Source: Escherichia phage vB_EcoS-101114BS4. From it: 45,251 nt of DNA. The translations under genes were made by a program, and so were the position numbers. The DNA lies in sequence record NC_073061.1; one strand, given 5' to 3'. A model generated the notes under the pieces. That model was not told the origin of the DNA. It saw nothing but the letters and a program-made list of their open reading frames with translations, and searched no databases. Shown here one piece after another: positions 3,519 through 44,045 of the stretch; within the stretch, counting starts at the first letter, position 1, and each line of letters opens with the position of its first letter.

Positions 3519-3544
3519 AGCCCGCCGATTTGGTGGGCTTTTTT
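3519..3544 (+). terminator. Rho-independent terminator
   Basis: agcccgcc-gattt-ggtgggct hairpin (one G-U pair) followed by tttttt. Confidence 0.65.
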
Positions 3545-3628
3545 GTGCCTGTTATAATCCCCCTTAGATGGCTGGGCCGTCTCCTATGTTGCCGATGGTC
3601 GGCGCATATGCATAAAAGGGCTTATATC

Positions 3629-4180
3629 ATGGCAGAAATCAAAGTTAAAGGCCGTCGTGCCAAACTGGACGGACGAGTAGCAGTTACCCCGCGCCGTAAA
3701 CCAGGCGAGCAAACAGAACACACCAATCTTGGACCCGAGATCGAATACGGCAAACGTCGTAAAGGCGGCAAATGTGGACGCCCGACCGACTACCGCACCG
3801 TGTATTGTGACCAGCTTCGTCGCTATTTTGCTGATGCCGTAGCCTGGCAGATCAACTACTCCGACAAGGGCGCTGCGCAAGTAATCCCTCACAACAAGAT
3901 GCCGACTCTCGGTCGCTTTGCCGCGGATATTGGCGTTGGCATCGCTTGCCTGTATCGCTGGGCGCGTGCACATGAGGAGTTTGCCGAAGCGATGGCGGAC
4001 GCTATGGAGTTGCAGAAAACTTTCCTGATGGAAGCTGGCGGCGTGACCATCGCGGCGGGCTTCGCAACGTTCCTGCTTAAAGCCAACCACGGCATTCGTG
4101 ACGATGCTCCGCTGGATGACGACGAAGATGATAACGGCGACGTCGTTGTCGAACCTACCGGCAAAGGCCAGGGTGAGTAA
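3629..4180 (+). CDS. Terminase small subunit
   Basis: 183-aa protein with acidic C-terminus (DDDEDDNGD) immediately upstream of and overlapping the large terminase; central HTH-like segment. Confidence 0.6.
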   Translation: MAEIKVKGRRAKLDGRVAVTPRRKPGEQTEHTNLGPEIEYGKRRKGGKCGRPTDYRTVYCDQLRRYFADAVAWQINYSDKGAAQVIPHNKMPTLGRFAADIGVGIACLYRWARAHEEFAEAMADAMELQKTFLMEAGGVTIAAGFATFLLKANHGIRDDAPLDDDEDDNGDVVVEPTGKGQGE

Positions 4181-9990: not shown

Positions 9991-10017
9991 TGTGCAACCA
10001 ATATAGTGCAACCAATA
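9991..10017. promoter_or_regulatory. Divergent control region with two direct TGCAACCAAT motifs
   Basis: TGCAACCAAT at 9993-10002 and 10008-10017, between the minus-strand start at 9970 and the scaffold start at 10120. Confidence 0.5.
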
Positions 10018-15580: not shown

Positions 15581-15583
15581 TGA

Positions 15584-15750
15584 AGCGGGACAAGCGGGAC
15601 GTCCCGATCTGTCCCGTTTTGCCCCGCCCCCTGTAAAACTGCATATCTACTCACTTTCATTGCATAAACTCAAAGCGGGACAAGCGGGACGTCCCGATCT
15701 GTCCCGCCCCCTAAATATGCATACCTATTCAGATTTCGTGCATAAAACAA
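15584..15750. repeat. Two tandem units of about 90 bp, each with GCGGGACAAGCGGGAC, the palindrome CGGGACGTCCCG and TGCATA motifs
   Basis: aagcgggacaagcgggacgtcccgatctgtcccg occurs at 15584 and 15674; palindromes at 15595-15606 and 15685-15696. Confidence 0.85.
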
Positions 15751-15907
15751 ACGGGACAGAAAGCGGGACAAACAAGGGGCGGGACAAAGCGGGACAGCAC
15801 CCCGTCCCCGTCAGTGCTGCCGCGGGTTTCAGCCGATCGGGACAGGCGGGACAACTCCCAGTCTTTCAGACTAGACGGGGGTCAATGGCCCCCCTCGTCT
15901 GAGACTG
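15750..15907. repeat. Copy A of a duplicated iteron-plus-hairpin element (copy B at 43319..43527)
   Basis: Four to six GCGGGACA direct repeats followed by the imperfect long hairpin cagtctttcagactagacgggggtcaatggcccccctcgtctgagactg (15859-15907). Confidence 0.85.
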
Positions 15908-15976
15908 AATAAGGTTTGTTTGAAATTCGCTGATACAATGTCAATCGGCAACTGCATAAAAAAAGGGGACTGCATA

Positions 15977-39709: not shown

Positions 39710-40228
39710 TTAATCTTCTAATTCGAAATAAGTTTCGACGATTGCTTTTAATTCCTGGTGGAACTCTTCCACGTCGTCATCTTCCAGCTTGGCAACGGAT
39801 TTAATTTCGAATTCTTCCAGCAGGTCGTCAAATTCGTCGTTTGCGTCGTCGTCATCACCGCCAGCAATAATAGCGGCATACTGCTTGATTTCGTCGCGCA
39901 TCTCTTTCAGCGGATCGGCATCTTTCTTGCCTTTACCTTTCGCCGGTGCTTTCTTAGATTTCGCCGGGGCTTCTTCTTCGTCGTCCGCGTCGTCTTCTTC
40001 TACGGCTTCTTTCTTAGCCTTGCCCTTTGCTGGCGCTTTTTTGGTCTTAGCCGGTGCTTCGTCTTCAGCGTCGTCATCTTCGACTACTTCTTCTTTTGCC
40101 TTGCCCTTAGCCGGGGCTTTCTTCGCTTCCTGTTTACCAACGGCAGCGCCAGCAGTTTCATAATGCTTAGCGATGGTTTCCAGTGCTACTACGCCGCGTG
40201 TGATCAGGTTTACGATTTGCTCAAACAT
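39710..40228 (-). CDS. Lys/Ala/Glu-rich repeat protein (histone H1-like composition), first gene of the leftward operon
   Basis: ATG 40228 (MFEQIVNL) with GGAG RBS; repeats EAPAKTKKAPAKGKAKKE; the upstream in-frame ORF extension is treated as 5' leader. Confidence 0.55.
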   Translation of the reverse strand: MFEQIVNLITRGVVALETIAKHYETAGAAVGKQEAKKAPAKGKAKEEVVEDDDAEDEAPAKTKKAPAKGKAKKEAVEEDDADDEEEAPAKSKKAPAKGKGKKDADPLKEMRDEIKQYAAIIAGGDDDDANDEFDDLLEEFEIKSVAKLEDDDVEEFHQELKAIVETYFELED

Positions 40229-40424
40229 TGTATATCTCCGATTGGTTAAGTTTAGGTGTCGGCAGTCAACTTCGTCGGTGGCCTTAACATAGTGCCAGGT
40301 TACGCGTTCTCCCTTTCGGGTAGTGGACCTGGTTATATAATCACGGTTGGGAATCCTGACACTTCGATCCGGCCCCTGCGTTGCCCCTCTCCAGTTTGCG
40401 TCCTGCATCCTGTCGACGGAGTGA

Positions 40425-40633: not shown

Positions 40634-40963
40634 ATGCATATCAACGACGCTATCGAAATGTTAACTAAGACCGTAAGCGGTGAGACAAGCCGGTCCTGGG
40701 CTTATACCGATGCCGTTGGTGCGGCGTTATTTGAAATCGAACGCCTGCGCAGTGTCGAAAAAGAATTGCGCGCCAAGCTGGAATTACTCAACGGTACGGC
40801 AGCAAGCAAGCTGCAAAAACACAATGAAGAAATGGAAGAATACAAAAAGCAGGTTATCCGTTTACGCGACGAGGGCAAGTCCTGGGCGATGATTGCCGAG
40901 TTGACCGGAATTAATCAGAGCACCGTGCGCTCCTGGGTACGCAATAATAAAACTTCTAAGTAA
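40634..40963 (+). CDS. Putative transcriptional regulator with C-terminal HTH
   Basis: 109 aa; C-terminal SWAMIAELTGINQSTVRSWVRN is HTH-like; first gene of the rightward unit. Confidence 0.5.
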   Translation: MHINDAIEMLTKTVSGETSRSWAYTDAVGAALFEIERLRSVEKELRAKLELLNGTAASKLQKHNEEMEEYKKQVIRLRDEGKSWAMIAELTGINQSTVRSWVRNNKTSK

Positions 40964-40973
40964 GGCAACGGCA

Positions 40974-43238
40974 ATGAGCTTAATTAAATTCGCAGTAACA
41001 AGACCCGCTAAAAAAGGCGAAAAAGCCAGGGCGGAAAACTTCGAGATGACCACTGATGAGTTTTTCGAATTTATCAATGATGCGAAAGAAATCTCCTCGG
41101 TGCACATCAACAAGACTGAAGATAAAGCCGAGTATGCGCGCCGCAAGCGTAAGGCCGATGGCATCGTGGCCTATACCAATGATGGGTTACGCCGCAAGAC
41201 CAGTGCGGTCGACCGCTCGATCCTGTTCTTCGATATTGACCGCACCGACACCCGCACATTACGCCGCTGCCGTAAAGCGTTCACCGACGCTGGTCTGGAG
41301 CATGTATTCCACACCACGACCGGCGACCGTCACCCACTGAAAGGCGGCACACGTTGCGCCCGTTTCCTGGTGCTCACTGACAAGCCTGTACCGGCTGAAG
41401 ACCTGGGCCGCGTCCAGTATGCGCTATTAGACCAACTGGGCCTGTCAGATGTGGACTTCGACGATTGTACGAAAGACACCAACCGCCTTATGTACCTGCC
41501 TCACCAGCAGTCTGTCATAAAGTGCCACTACGGAAAGCGCGCCCGTGTCCGTCGTCTGCTTCGCCTGGCTGACAAGCTGGGAGTGGAGAAAGAGGAAGTG
41601 CGCCGCGAACTGACCCAGGGCGCCGATGGCGTGGCGGACGGCATTCTGGATTGGTGCTTCCAGGCTGGCTTTGAACCACTGTCATCCGGTCGCGGTTATG
41701 AAGTGCCTTGCCCGAACGAGCACCTGCATAGCGGCGGCGGGTCGACGGCTATCATGGTTAAGGATGGCGAGATCCGTTTCAAGTGTATGCACACCGGCAA
41801 CGAATGCTGTTCCGAACTGAATAAACACCAGCACCTGGCGCTGCGTCTGATCGGCATCCCGGACCACTTGAACGTTGAACCGCACAACATGTCACGCAAG
41901 CAAATCGCCGCCATCCTTCCGGGACTGGACGACGAGGAAGTGGAATCATGCTATGAACATATTGTTGATGCGGTCGGCGACGGCGACGAGTACGGCGAAT
42001 GCACCGACGCTGACCTGGACAACGAACCTGTTGCACTATTCAGTAAGCACGACCCGATCATCGAAGGCCTGGTCAACTTCAAATCGACCTGGTATCTTGC
42101 CGGTGAGTCGAACATTGGTAAGTCGTTCTACGTGCTGGGCCAGATGGCGTCCGTATCTGCCGGTATTCCGTTTGGTGGCGCGAAGGTCGTCCAGTCGCAT
42201 TGCTTCTATTTCGACGCGGAAGGTGGCGAAGCCTCCAACCAGCGTAAGGAAGCACTGCAGATTAAATACGAGCACGACCTCGACAAGCTGCACATTATCG
42301 ACCTGCAATCACGCGGCTGGGATATTACCAGCAAGTCAGGCTTGCGCGAGGTTATCAGCTTTATCAACCGCACCGCTAACGGGGAGCCGGTTGGCCTGGT
42401 GGCCTTCGACTCACTCAACCAGACTGTAGCGCTGCGGTCCGCTGATGCCAAACCGTTCGACGAGAACAACGCCAGCGATATGGGCGAAGTGGTCAAGGCG
42501 CTGAAGGCCATTGCGGAAAATACAGGCGGCAGTGCGGGCGTCATCCATCACCCGGCTAAGGGTGCAAACGGCAGCAGATCCCCACGCGGGTCCGGCGCGC
42601 TTCATGGTGCTGTCGATTCTGCGTTCTTCCTGGAACAGCCGGACGATAATCAGCCAGGCCAACTCAACCTGTATCACGAAAAATCCCGTAACGGCATCAA
42701 GCAAGCGCCGCGTGGCTTCGTCCTGCTCAAATGCAAGGTGAAGGTGGATCTCCGTAAGTCCGAGGCGTTCGAAGCCCACCAGTCCACCAGCACCGGTCCG
42801 GACTTCGGCGATGTGGTTGCCGGTTGGGACGTCAAGCCAATTGCATCCACGCCACGCGACGAGACTCTCTACCTCGTACCGGTCGCCCTGGCACCGTTCG
42901 CTGTCGAACAGGCTAAGGCCGCAGGCAAGGCCGCAGTTAAGGAAGAGAACACCGCCGGACCGCGCAACGAAAAAGAGAAGGTGCTTTATGCGGCACTGGA
43001 AAAACTGATGGAAGATAACCCGGACCATACTGGATTCAGTAAATCGGCAATTGTCCGCCAGGCTGGACTCGCGAAAGGCGGAACATCGACGAAGGCAATC
43101 GACGATATGGTGGAGCGCGGCGTGCTCGGTTTTTATACAGATCCACACACCGGGGCCATCTATGGGTCGTCGAATCTGGTCATCAAATCGGATATCCCAA
43201 TCACGCTTTCGGCGACCGATGATGACCTGAAAGATTAA
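40974..43238 (+). CDS. Primase-helicase (primase/polymerase N-domain, zinc-binding region, P-loop helicase)
   Basis: 754 aa; ILFFDIDRTD, cysteine-rich CPNEHLH...FKCMHTGNECC, Walker A GESNIGKS, Walker B-like LVAFDSL. Confidence 0.7.
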   Translation: MSLIKFAVTRPAKKGEKARAENFEMTTDEFFEFINDAKEISSVHINKTEDKAEYARRKRKADGIVAYTNDGLRRKTSAVDRSILFFDIDRTDTRTLRRCRKAFTDAGLEHVFHTTTGDRHPLKGGTRCARFLVLTDKPVPAEDLGRVQYALLDQLGLSDVDFDDCTKDTNRLMYLPHQQSVIKCHYGKRARVRRLLRLADKLGVEKEEVRRELTQGADGVADGILDWCFQAGFEPLSSGRGYEVPCPNEHLHSGGGSTAIMVKDGEIRFKCMHTGNECCSELNKHQHLALRLIGIPDHLNVEPHNMSRKQIAAILPGLDDEEVESCYEHIVDAVGDGDEYGECTDADLDNEPVALFSKHDPIIEGLVNFKSTWYLAGESNIGKSFYVLGQMASVSAGIPFGGAKVVQSHCFYFDAEGGEASNQRKEALQIKYEHDLDKLHIIDLQSRGWDITSKSGLREVISFINRTANGEPVGLVAFDSLNQTVALRSADAKPFDENNASDMGEVVKALKAIAENTGGSAGVIHHPAKGANGSRSPRGSGALHGAVDSAFFLEQPDDNQPGQLNLYHEKSRNGIKQAPRGFVLLKCKVKVDLRKSEAFEAHQSTSTGPDFGDVVAGWDVKPIASTPRDETLYLVPVALAPFAVEQAKAAGKAAVKEENTAGPRNEKEKVLYAALEKLMEDNPDHTGFSKSAIVRQAGLAKGGTSTKAIDDMVERGVLGFYTDPHTGAIYGSSNLVIKSDIPITLSATDDDLKD

Positions 43239-43318
43239 TTTTTGCGCGCATTGGTTGCCAAATTGAGTGTTTTTAGCTGGTCGCATTGGTTGCCGTGTAG
43301 TGTAAATATAGTGAATAG

Positions 43319-43527
43319 TTATGCAGTTTTATTGCATAAAGTAAGCGGGACAAAAAGCGGGACAGACAGGGGGCGGGACAAAGCGGGACAGCACCCCTGT
43401 CCCGCCCCGGATGGCGCGGCTTGCAGGGGGGCGGGACAGGCGGGACAAACCCCAGTCTTTCAGACTAGACGGGGGTCAGTTGGCCCCCCTCGTCTGAGAC
43501 TGCATAAAATCCGGGATTGCATAATGT
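43319..43527. repeat. Copy B of the duplicated iteron-plus-hairpin element, flanked by inverted TGCATAA motifs
   Basis: Six GCGGGACA repeats (43345-43450), hairpin cagtctttcagactagacgggggtcagttggcccccctcgtctgagactg (43453-43502), ttatgcag at the left and ctgcataa at the right edge. Confidence 0.85.
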
Positions 43528-43718
43528 ACGGCAGCATGATGTGAATTGCTGTCGTCGACGAACTAGGCAACCAATGCGAGTTGCAAAATGGAGAGTGAAA
43601 AATGCAGTTTGCAGTTACAGCGGATAGGGATCGGCTTTTTCATACGCATGATTAATATTGGTTGCAATCAGCCTGGCACCTTGCTAGATTGGTTGCTCAC
43701 CAACATGAGGACTGAACA

Positions 43719-44045
43719 ATGAGAGCATTAATCTGGAATTACTCACTGGCAATGGCGGCGGCACAAGAAGCGGCGGAGTTCGCCGGTGAAGGGGCGGAAG
43801 CGGTCGAAAGACTAGCGGCAGCGTGGTCCGTTGTTCGCTTCGCGCAGCAGGCCATCGCCTGGATGCTTGAGCGCCGCTTCGACACGATGGCGGAGATCCA
43901 GCCGTTGGCGAACGCTATCCAGGACTACGCGCTTGCATTTGCCCGTGAGCGCCTGGCGTATCGCTTCGGTATTGGCGATAAGGCAGTGACAAACGTCGCC
44001 AGGATTAAAGCCCAGCGCGAACTATTCGCCCAGCTTGCGAAATAA
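43719..44045 (+). CDS. Hypothetical protein
   Basis: 108-aa Ala-rich ORF with GAGGA RBS. Confidence 0.5.
   Translation: MRALIWNYSLAMAAAQEAAEFAGEGAEAVERLAAAWSVVRFAQQAIAWMLERRFDTMAEIQPLANAIQDYALAFARERLAYRFGIGDKAVTNVARIKAQRELFAQLAK

What the first reader, a model, noticed from the sequence alone, without database searches (positions are those of the whole stretch)
43239..43718. 480-bp non-coding region after the primase-helicase gene with origin-like architecture
Directly downstream of the primase-helicase stop lie two ATTGGTTGC motifs, an AT-rich stretch (agtgtaaatatagtgaatagttatgcagttttattgcataaag), six GCGGGACA iterons, the conserved hairpin, and three more GCAACCAA-type motifs before the next gene at 43719. 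An iteron array next to an AT-rich tract beside an initiator gene is the classic layout of phage and plasmid origins.
Basis: inference. Interest (0 to 1): 0.65.

Follow-up and report, generated by a model that had tools for sequence, protein, structure and literature searches.

The report
Putative two-copy iteron phage replication origin
The 480-bp gap after the primase-helicase gene of this E. coli phage (genus Dhillonvirus) really carries a conserved array of protein-binding repeats, an easily melted AT-rich tract and a hairpin. It is most likely a replication origin of a known general type, it has a second copy in the tail-gene region, and nobody has tested it experimentally.

Summary
GCGGGACA occurs 16 times in the window against about 2 expected. 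Seven copies lie at 43345-43447 (six direct, one inverted).

The window is a Dhillonvirus (HK578/SO-1-like coliphage). The same layout follows the primase-helicase gene in more than 140 relatives, in seven metagenomic sister lineages, in Salmonella Cornellvirus and in Edwardsiella Eiauvirus. That layout is boxes, an AT-rich tract, an iteron array and a GC hairpin.

The iteron word changes between lineages: GCGGGACA, GTGTGGCA, GTGTGCCA, GGTGCCA, GGGGAGA. The layout stays. The primase-helicase is an AEP primase joined to a RepA-like helicase and a C-terminal winged helix. The winged helix is its most variable part.

The array plus hairpin is duplicated at 15583-15912, between the tail chaperone and tape-measure genes. 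ATTGGTTGC is a genome-wide promoter-associated box, not an origin-specific motif.

Best reading, at about 0.55: an iteron origin read by the helicase's own winged helix, with a second copy comparable to SPP1 oriR or P4 crr. The SO-1 GenBank record already flags both regions as repeat regions. This is a new member of a known kind, of moderate interest, with no functional test yet.

The parts
40634..40963 (+). Small HTH protein gene (109 aa), first gene of the rightward early operon. It is the candidate reader of the ATTGGTTGC box, not of the iterons.
   Evidence: Pfam HTH_23 and Sigma70_r4_2. The HTH segment GKSWAMIAE(L/I/R)TGINxSTVRSWVRN is nearly invariant in all sister lineages, although their iterons differ.
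40974..43238 (+). Primase-helicase gene (754 aa). Domains: AEP-fold primase, a Cys/His cluster, a RepA-like AAA_25 helicase, a C-terminal winged helix and an acidic tail.
42936..43238 (+). Coding region of the C-terminal winged-helix domain and acidic tail. This domain is the proposed iteron reader.
43247..43294 (+). Two direct CGCATTGGTTGCC boxes (43247-43259 and 43282-43294).
   Evidence: The boxes are conserved in 13 relatives, but their number and orientation vary between lineages.
43295..43345 (.). AT-rich tract, the candidate DNA-unwinding element. It contains the conserved GAATAGTTATGCA and the palindrome TTATGCA-N7-TGCATAA (43319-43339).
   Evidence: It is the 2nd to 4th least stable duplex segment of the window. 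GAATAGTTAT is also present after the helicase gene in Shemara and the sister lineages. The 7-nt spacer occurs in both orientations among relatives.
43345..43447 (+). Iteron array. GCGGGACA is direct at 43345, 43357, 43373 and 43383, inverted at 43398-43405, then direct at 43431 and 43440 after a GC-rich spacer.
   Evidence: The motif and the 12/16/10/9-nt spacing are conserved while the spacers vary. Other lineages carry a different word in the same layout.
43453..43502 (+). Imperfect GC-rich hairpin. Lower stem CAGTCT/AGACTG, upper stem AGACGGGGG/CCCCC(C)TCGTCT, and an invariant unpaired TTCAGACT.
   Evidence: -28.9 kcal/mol, z = -4.67. The arms are nearly invariant, with one compensatory G-C to U-A change in L030. 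Hairpins of different sequence sit at the same place in L031, eiAU and, more weakly, Shemara. No U-tract follows it.
43501..43524 (+). Two direct TGCATAA motifs closing the module that regions A and B share.
43566..43578 (-). Inverted box GGCAACCAATGCG.
   Evidence: It is conserved in SO-1 and Ioannina.
43603..43656 (+). Conserved 17-codon micro-ORF (MQFAVTADRDRLFHTHD) with a GGAG ribosome-binding site. Its function is unknown.
43657..43696 (+). Promoter-like site for the downstream genes: TTGCAA (43661), a 17-nt spacer, TAGATT (43684). It is flanked and overlapped by two ATTGGTTGC boxes.
   Evidence: Read directly from the sequence. It matches 8 of 12 positions, so it falls below the scanner's threshold. 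SO-1 and Ioannina have TTGCAT-17-TATATT, 9 of 12. The same box-plus-leader arrangement occurs at 9994-10016.
15583..15912 (+). Region A, the second copy, lying between the tail chaperone genes and the tape-measure gene. It has two ~90-nt tandem units, then the same module of four direct, one degenerate inverted and two direct iterons plus the hairpin at 15859-15907.
   Evidence: It is present in nearly all relatives ('places in record' is 2). A and B are old paralogues: A-A 90%, B-B 89%, A-B 82% identity. It is annotated as 'region A' in SO-1.

Best explanation
Region B (43239-43718) is the phage's iteron-type origin of replication, or at least the assembly site of its replication initiator.

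Proposed mechanism, all inferred:
1. The 754-aa primase-helicase binds the GCGGGACA repeats through its C-terminal winged-helix domain and oligomerises on the array.
2. The neighbouring AT-rich tract (43295-43345) melts.
3. The RepA-like helicase ring is loaded.
4. The AEP primase domain starts synthesis, possibly using the extruded GC hairpin (43453-43502) as a recognition structure. This would parallel RSF1010 RepB' at its ssi hairpins, or pRN1 ORF904 at its stem-loop.

The flanking ATTGGTTGC boxes are promoter or regulator sites, probably read by the small invariant HTH protein. They may couple transcription to initiation, but they are not the iterons.

Region A (15583-15912) is a second binding array for the same protein. 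It could act as a second origin or enhancer, like P4 crr, or as a fork barrier that helps the switch to concatemeric replication, like SPP1 oriR.

Shown here: the anatomy, its conservation, the lineage-specific iteron words, and the predicted domain folds. Inferred: who binds the repeats, melting, priming, and the role of copy A.
For: 1. The iteron statistics and layout are far beyond chance.

2. Across 13 Dhillonvirus region-B sequences the 8-mers and their spacing are invariant while the spacers drift. One phage (EE09) lacks the last three repeats but keeps four repeats plus the hairpin.

3. The same order of elements directly follows the primase-helicase stop codon in sister lineages at 66-69% helicase identity, in Cornellvirus Shemara at 44%, and in Eiauvirus, although the downstream genes differ.

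4. The repeat word differs by lineage: CGGGACA, GTGTGGCA, GTGTGCCA, GGTGCCA, GGGGAGA, CGCCCCG. This is the behaviour expected of an initiator and its iterons.

5. The neighbouring HTH protein keeps a nearly invariant HTH segment in those sister lineages. It fits the invariant box, not the iterons.

6. The helicase C-terminus is a winged helix and its most variable domain alongside the N-terminal AEP domain.

7. P0012 is 92% identical to P0009 and P0014 in the middle domain but only 49-54% in the winged helix, and their iterons differ. The window and P0012 share the iteron at 59% winged-helix identity. The residue after GG at the start of helix 3 is T in all CGGGACA lineages and S in all the others.

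8. The AT-rich tract ranks 2nd to 4th for duplex instability. The other two least stable sites have no iteron array.

9. The N-terminal domain has an AEP primase fold similar to RepB', and the helicase is AAA_25/RepA-like.

10. There are precedents for an origin just downstream of a primase-helicase-WH gene (pRN1, BPP-1; PMC4234260), for iterons read by a WH domain on a primase-helicase (P4 alpha; PMC2777425, PMC4234260), and for two similar origins with one in the late genes (SPP1; PMC6316719).

11. Both copies have kept every iteron and the hairpin since before the genus radiated. In eiAU both copies carry that lineage's own motif.
Against: There is no functional or marker-frequency evidence.

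GC skew is uninformative. The cumulative minimum at 40-43 kb coincides with the switch in gene orientation.

The covariation between winged helix and iteron rests on eight related lineages and essentially one class-specific residue, so it is weak.

Both copies lie in the same orientation inside the long rightward transcription unit, which would also suit a transcriptional or RNA element.

The hairpin arms are almost invariant, so structure is supported by only one compensatory pair within the close set.

Cornellvirus Shemara shows only one copy in the roughly 40.6 kb examined, so the second copy is not universal.

There is no DnaA-box enrichment.
Confidence: 0.55

Rival explanations
1. It is a transcriptional control module. 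The repeat array would be a binding platform for a phage regulator, and the hairpin a terminator, attenuator or roadblock. It would mark operon boundaries: the end of the early primase-helicase operon, and the boundary between abundant tail genes and the tape-measure gene. Promoters carrying ATTGGTTGC boxes would restart transcription.
For: Both copies lie between genes of the same rightward unit and in the same orientation. ATTGGTTGC boxes overlap -35-like hexamers genome-wide, and a promoter-like site sits at 43661-43689. Sister lineages carry a TATAAG-like element inside the array. A drop in expression after the tail chaperone genes is biologically plausible.
Against: The hairpin has no U-tract, and the scanner finds no terminator or sigma-70 promoter at the module. 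The only candidate regulator next door has a nearly invariant HTH segment while the repeats change between lineages. Linkage to the primase-helicase gene is kept even where the downstream genes differ, and Shemara has no copy at its tape-measure gene. Window region A carries no ATTGGTTGC box.
Confidence: 0.2
2. The conserved hairpin, with or without the G-rich repeats, acts as RNA. It could be an RNase III-type processing site, an antitermination element or a small RNA, transcribed twice within the long rightward transcript.
For: The + strand RNA folds stably, at z = -4.7 and -3.3 for the two copies. The roughly 20-bp imperfect stem resembles processing sites. Both copies are co-oriented with transcription.
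Against: There is no Rfam match even at E = 1. The stem is conserved as sequence, with almost no covariation. An RNA role does not explain short direct repeats whose word changes by lineage, nor the inverted copy. The palindromic stem forms equally in DNA.
Confidence: 0.1
3. It is a selfish or neutral repeat, either a MITE-like insertion or a recombination hotspot, with no role in the phage life cycle.
For: It is a dispersed two-copy repeat. Tandem copy number varies nearby, for example five units in Teewinot. Assemblies break inside it.
Against: Both copies sit at fixed syntenic positions in more than 140 genomes, and the analogous layout recurs in other genera. The motifs stay invariant while the spacers diverge. 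There are no target-site duplications or terminal inverted repeats bounding the module.
Confidence: 0.05
4. It is the packaging (pac) recognition site for headful packaging.
For: Terminase small subunits often bind repeated motifs. Three GenBank records end at about window 43614-43617.
Against: The genus is reported as headful, with circularly permuted assemblies conventionally opened at terS (PMC9022532). terS lies about 5 kb further along, at 3530-4180 across the end of the window. The repeat word tracks the helicase gene, not the terminase. The shared record ends may be arbitrary.
Confidence: 0.04
5. The region encodes a protein, namely the 100-codon ORF 43242-43544 that several GenBank records annotate as hypothetical.
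For: There is a stop-free span of 100 codons. It is annotated in Bas83 and other records.
Against: The frame and length of the stop-free span change between close relatives, and indels are not multiples of three. It has a TTG start and no Pfam hit. G-rich repeats avoid stop codons by composition alone.
Confidence: 0.02

Closest known systems
Satellite phage P4 ori/crr with the alpha protein
   Same: One polypeptide carries primase, helicase and a C-terminal winged-helix origin-binding domain. Short octamer-type iterons are bound by that domain. The iterons sit at two separate loci (ori and crr). Sources: PMC2777425 and PMC4234260 for the domain and iteron statements; the existence of crr is from my own knowledge.
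   Different: P4 alpha has a Toprim (DnaG-type) primase and an SF3 helicase. Here the primase has an AEP fold and the helicase is RepA-like AAA_25. There is no sequence similarity. The P4 loci are a few kb apart, not 17-28 kb, and no GC hairpin belongs to the P4 module as far as I know.
Bacillus phage SPP1 oriL/oriR with gp38
   Same: A ~44-kb virulent pac-type siphovirus with two similarly organised origins, each made of direct repeats plus an AT-rich DUE. One lies in the replication gene cluster. The other interrupts the conserved order of late assembly genes. The second copy is proposed to stall forks and trigger the theta-to-concatemer switch (PMC6316719, PMC3485210).
   Different: SPP1 has a separate origin-binding protein, helicase loader and DnaB-type helicase, and it uses the host primase. 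oriL lies inside gene 38. There is no sequence relation.
RSF1010 (IncQ) oriV with RepA, RepB' and RepC
   Different: RSF1010 uses three separate proteins, whereas here they are fused into one. Its iterons are 20-mers. It has two ssi hairpins on opposite strands, against one palindromic hairpin here. It replicates by strand displacement, and the mode here is unknown.
pRN1 ORF56/ORF904 replicon, and Bordetella phage BPP-1/BIP-1
   Same: The operon is a small DNA-binding protein followed by a prim/pol-helicase-winged-helix protein. The essential cis element is a stem-loop immediately downstream of that gene (PMC4234260, PMC2777425).
   Different: ORF904 has an SF3 helicase. The pRN1 origin has no iterons and a ~100-nt stem-loop. 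Its host is archaeal.
Lambda-type ori (O protein iterons plus an AT-rich region)
   Same: Four or more iterons lie next to an AT-rich tract, and iteron and initiator specificity differ between related phages (my own knowledge).
   Different: Lambda ori lies inside the O gene. O is only an origin binder. The helicase and primase come from the host.

Membership tests
Iteron-type replication origin (plasmid/phage theta or strand-displacement origins) | An array of at least three short direct repeats with roughly helical spacing, in which the motif is conserved and the spacers are free to vary | tested here: met
   Six direct and one inverted GCGGGACA, with start-to-start spacing of 12, 16, 10 and 9 nt. 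The motif is invariant and the spacers vary in 13 relatives.
Iteron-type replication origin (plasmid/phage theta or strand-displacement origins) | An adjacent AT-rich DNA-unwinding element | tested here: met
   43295-43345 is the 2nd to 4th least stable segment of 45 kb by nearest-neighbour free energy. Supercoil-dependent unwinding (SIDD) was not computed.
Iteron-type replication origin (plasmid/phage theta or strand-displacement origins) | A cognate initiator that binds the iterons, with specificity co-evolving with them | tested here: inconclusive
   The iteron word changes by lineage. The helicase winged helix is the variable domain and partly tracks the iteron class. Binding itself was not tested.
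Iteron-type replication origin (plasmid/phage theta or strand-displacement origins) | Supports initiation of replication in cis | not testable with these tools
   This needs a plasmid replication assay or marker-frequency sequencing.
Iteron-type replication origin (plasmid/phage theta or strand-displacement origins) | Host-factor sites (DnaA boxes), as found in many plasmid origins. This feature is optional. | tested here: not met
   TTATNCACA with up to 1 mismatch gives 31 matches against 28 expected, and none lies in the non-coding region.
P4 alpha-type initiator system | Toprim primase plus an SF3 (D5-like) helicase | tested here: not met
   The fold is AEP and the helicase is AAA_25/RepA-like. 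It works like P4 alpha but is not a member.
P4 alpha-type initiator system | A C-terminal winged-helix domain on the primase-helicase, with iterons at two loci | tested here: met
   Winged-helix model. Arrays at 43.35 kb and 15.6 kb.
RSF1010-type oriV | Iterons, GC-rich and AT-rich segments, and two ssi hairpins on opposite strands recognised by an AEP primase | tested here: inconclusive
   Iterons, an AT-rich tract, a GC-rich spacer and one hairpin are present. There is only one palindromic hairpin per module, and primase recognition was not tested.
Intrinsic (rho-independent) terminator | A GC-rich hairpin followed directly by a U-tract | tested here: not met
   The scanner reports no terminator at 43453-43502 or at 15859-15907. 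The tails are CATAAAATCC and AATAAGGTTT.
Known structured RNA family (Rfam 15) | A covariance-model match at gathering score | tested here: not met
   There are no matches in the window. Only chance-level miRNA hits appear at E of about 0.4.
Protein-coding gene | A reading frame conserved among relatives | tested here: not met
   The frame and length of the stop-free span vary, and there is no Pfam hit.

The most novel reading that the evidence does not exclude
Dhillonvirus and its relatives may use a single-polypeptide initiator that fuses the three RSF1010 functions: an AEP primase like RepB', a RepA-type helicase, and a winged-helix iteron reader in the role of RepC. This protein would act on a composite origin of iterons, DUE and a priming hairpin. 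The origin would be kept as two ancient paralogous copies, the one inside the tail operon serving as a programmed fork barrier or second origin that drives the switch to concatemer synthesis. A separate invariant HTH protein would read the ATTGGTTGC promoter boxes and tie transcription to initiation.
Probability: 0.3. Interest if true: 0.55.

Novelty: new member of a known kind. Interest (0 to 1): 0.4.

Why it matters
Dhillonvirus phages are among the most often isolated coliphages and belong to the BASEL collection, yet their replication has not been studied. A defined origin and initiator pair would have several uses:
- It would give a handle for engineering these phages, for example ori-based amplification or replication-dependent reporters.
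- It would explain why assemblies break at these loci.
- It would offer a natural series of matched iteron and winged-helix specificities (CGGGACA, GTGGCA, GTGCCA, GGGGAGA) for studying how initiator specificity evolves.
- It would allow a test of whether the SPP1 'second origin as fork barrier' idea applies to Gram-negative siphoviruses.

If the region turns out to be transcriptional instead, the same comparative series would define a new regulator and operator system.

Tried and rejected
- **Rfam.** Searched at gathering score and at E up to 1. Nothing was found.
- **Promoter and terminator scans.** No hits at the module in either region.
- **GC skew.** Its minimum coincides with the switch in gene strand, so it cannot locate an origin.
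- **Literature.** I found no paper on Dhillonvirus or SO-1 origins or on these repeats. The SO-1 feature note is cut off after 'possible ...' in the tool output, so its wording is unknown.
- **Search with the C-terminal 115 residues alone.** It returned only two fragments. The full-length search was used instead.
- **Second copy in a variant-iteron lineage.** The pattern GTGTGGCA-N5-hairpin gave no match in viral contigs. GGTGTGGCANGTGTGGCA gave 120 matches in metagenome contigs, and none among the returned loci checked was a relative. So co-variation of both copies is shown only for Dhillonvirus and eiAU.
- **Hairpin covariation in the close set.** It is almost uninformative: 14 of 18 predicted pairs never vary and one pair is compensatory.
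- **Concerted evolution of copies A and B.** Rejected. Orthologous copies are more alike than the two copies within one genome.
- **DnaA boxes.** Not enriched.
- **Other AT-rich minima.** The sites at 39.7 kb and 26.03 kb lack intergenic iterons. The repeats at 39.8-40.1 kb are coding repeats inside a minus-strand gene.
- **PDB sequence search.** Only a marginal RepA hit, E = 0.5.

Full report
**What is there**

The primase-helicase ORF ends at 43238 and the next ORF starts at 43719. The 480 bp between them contain, in order:
- two CGCATTGGTTGCC boxes (43247-43259 and 43282-43294);
- an AT-rich tract (43295-43345) holding GAATAGTTATGCA and the palindrome TTATGCA-N7-TGCATAA;
- four direct GCGGGACA repeats (43345, 43357, 43373, 43383), one inverted copy (43398), a GC-rich spacer, and two more direct copies (43431, 43440);
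- an imperfect GC hairpin (43453-43502);
- two TGCATAA motifs;
- an inverted box (43566-43578);
- a 17-codon micro-ORF (43603-43656);
- a promoter-like site, TTGCAA-17-TAGATT, overlapped by two further boxes (43657-43696).

GCGGGACA occurs 16 times in the window against 1.9 expected. The AT tract is the 2nd to 4th least stable duplex segment of the 45 kb. The hairpin folds at -28.9 kcal/mol, z = -4.7.

Seven more GCGGGACA copies and the same hairpin lie at 15583-15912, between the tail chaperone genes and the tape-measure gene. A module of about 190 nt is shared with region B, with the same iteron order and spacing.

ATTGGTTGC is not special to this region. The window has 15 exact copies, mostly intergenic and often paired. 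The TTGC of the box coincides with -35-like hexamers about 17 nt upstream of -10-like hexamers.

**Identity of the genome**

The window is a Dhillonvirus, an HK578/SO-1-like virulent coliphage. 157 phage records match, and 142 of them cover at least 80% of the 480 bp at 76-95% identity. Nearly all have two places that match.

The SO-1 GenBank record annotates exactly these two loci as 'region A' and 'region B'. Its note reads 'direct, inverted and palindromic repeat sequences; sequence similarity with [the other]; possible ...' and is cut off in the tool output. I found no paper that discusses them. The genus is reported to package by the headful mechanism (PMC9022532).

**Comparative anatomy within the genus**

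In 13 region-B sequences the 8-mers, their spacing, the hairpin arms, the boxes and GAATAGTTATGCA are essentially invariant. Spacers, the hairpin loop and the segment between the inverted repeat and the last two repeats drift. EE09 lacks the last three repeats.

No reading frame is conserved across the array.

Copies A and B are old paralogues. A-A identity between genomes is 90%, B-B is 89%, and A-B is 82%. Both copies have therefore been kept independently under constraint.

**Comparative anatomy beyond the genus**

The full-length primase-helicase has relatives at 66-69% identity in metagenomes and at 42-49% in other phage genera. In every case examined, the non-coding stretch directly after its stop codon has the same order of elements but a different repeat word:

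| Lineage | Repeat word |
|---|---|
| Window, P0012, P0013 | GCGGGACA |
| P0009, P0014 | GTGTGGCA |
| P0010 | GTGTGCCA |
| P0011, P0015 | GGTGCCA |
| Salmonella phage Shemara | GGGGAGA (six direct, one inverted) |
| Edwardsiella phage eiAU-183 | CGCCCCG-type |

In eiAU-183 both the post-helicase gap and the pre-tape-measure gap carry that lineage's motif, box arrays and a GACGGGGG...CCCCTCGTC hairpin. Shemara has no gap at its tape-measure gene and only one array in the roughly 40.6 kb examined.

Hairpins of different sequence sit at the equivalent place in L031 (z = -4.8), eiAU (z = -2.9) and, weakly, Shemara (z = -1.75). Within the close set there is one compensatory G-C to U-A pair and otherwise invariance.

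**Who reads the repeats?**

The small HTH protein encoded just upstream (40634-40963; Pfam HTH_23 and Sigma70_r4_2) has a nearly invariant HTH segment in all the sister lineages, although their iterons differ. It matches the invariant ATTGGTTGC box, not the iterons.

The primase-helicase has four parts:
- a RepA-like AAA_25 helicase;
- an acidic tail.

Together with the N-terminal AEP domain, the winged helix is the most divergent part of the protein. P0012 is 92% identical to P0009 and P0014 in the middle domain but 49-54% in the winged helix, and their iterons differ. The window and P0012 share the iteron at 59% winged-helix identity. The residue after GG at the start of helix 3 is T in all CGGGACA lineages and S in all the others. 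This is suggestive, not conclusive.

**Mechanism proposed (inferred)**

The winged helix binds the iterons and the protein oligomerises. The AT tract melts, the helicase ring loads and the AEP primase starts synthesis, perhaps at the extruded hairpin.

The closest functional analogues are these:
- P4 alpha with ori/crr: primase, helicase and winged helix in one protein, with iterons at two loci.
- RSF1010 RepC/RepA/RepB' with iterons and ssi hairpins.
- pRN1 ORF56/ORF904, with its essential stem-loop just downstream of the gene (PMC4234260, PMC2777425).
- SPP1 oriL/oriR: two similar origins, one interrupting the late genes and proposed to stall forks and trigger concatemeric replication (PMC6316719, PMC3485210).

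This is not a member of the P4 family, because the primase and helicase folds differ.

**Rivals**

A transcriptional boundary module is the main alternative, at about 0.2. Both copies are co-oriented within the rightward unit and promoter boxes abound. Against it, the hairpin lacks a U-tract, the scanners find nothing at the module, and the only nearby regulator has a nearly invariant HTH segment while the repeats change.

An RNA element (about 0.1) lacks Rfam support and does not explain lineage-specific direct repeats.

A selfish repeat, a pac site and a protein-coding reading are each unlikely.

**Verdict**

The anatomy is real, conserved and far from chance. An iteron-type origin read by the adjacent primase-helicase is the best-supported reading, at about 0.55, with a second copy in the tail operon.

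It is a new member of a known kind. It was already flagged as a repeat region in one GenBank record and has not been tested functionally. Interest is moderate. The natural series of iteron and winged-helix specificities and the two-copy arrangement are the parts most worth an experiment.

Noticed in passing
window, 15 exact sites, e.g. 1771, 9994/10008, 26110, 28963, 30624/30641, 33582, 40432, 44243 (and 40634-40963 for the protein): ATTGGTTGC is a genome-wide, mostly intergenic box, often found in pairs. Its TTGC overlaps -35-like hexamers. The box is invariant in the sister lineages and in eiAU. The small HTH / sigma-region-4-like protein encoded at 40634-40963 is nearly invariant in its HTH segment across the sister lineages. 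Together they look like a phage-specific system of promoter or operator plus regulator.
   Followed up: partly
window 43319-43339: In the palindrome TTATGCA-N7-TGCATAA, the 7-nt spacer occurs as GTTTTAT in some relatives and as its reverse complement ATAAAAC in others. This is a hairpin-loop 'flip', which implies the palindrome extrudes or recombines in vivo.
   Followed up: partly
L026 (Teewinot) 1247-1500; also L003, L010, L020, L025: Some relatives carry 1-5 tandem copies of a ~56-nt unit. The unit is made of the last codons of the helicase gene, an ATTGGTTGC box and a perfect 22-bp palindrome, CGATATGGGAATTCCCATATCG. The window has none.
   Followed up: no
window 43603-43656: A 17-codon micro-ORF (MQFAVTADRDRLFHTHD) with a GGAG ribosome-binding site ends exactly at the next ATTGGTTGC box. 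It is conserved with partly synonymous changes in SO-1, Ioannina and a metagenomic relative. The overlapping 44-codon ORF 43588-43722, which some records annotate, is broken in SO-1.
   Followed up: partly
window 15583-15750: Region A has two extra tandem units of about 90 nt upstream of the shared module. Each unit is GCGGGACAAGCGGGACGTCCCGATCTGTCCCG, a C-rich stretch, then TGCATA-N17-TGCATAA.
   Followed up: no
L029 end (12370), L032 end (2951), L034 end (5151): Three independent metagenome contigs stop inside the post-helicase repeat region. This is the pattern expected when an assembler meets a sequence repeated elsewhere in the genome.
   Followed up: no
window 39772-40123 (minus-strand gene 39710-40408): The 232-aa ORF next to the divergent early region contains three or four imperfect coding repeats of 81-87 nt. 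It has no confident family assignment: PHROG 3127, function unknown.
   Followed up: no
window ~43614-43617: Three GenBank records (PTXU06, Zar3M, SP1) end at the same point inside this region. This is probably a shared, arbitrary linearisation rather than a physical end, since the genus is reported as headful.
   Followed up: no
window 43221-43238: The primase-helicase ends in a conserved acidic tail (DDDLKD, DEDLDD or DEDLEN in relatives). It is reminiscent of the acidic C-terminal tails that tether polymerases or SSBs in other phage replisomes.
   Followed up: no
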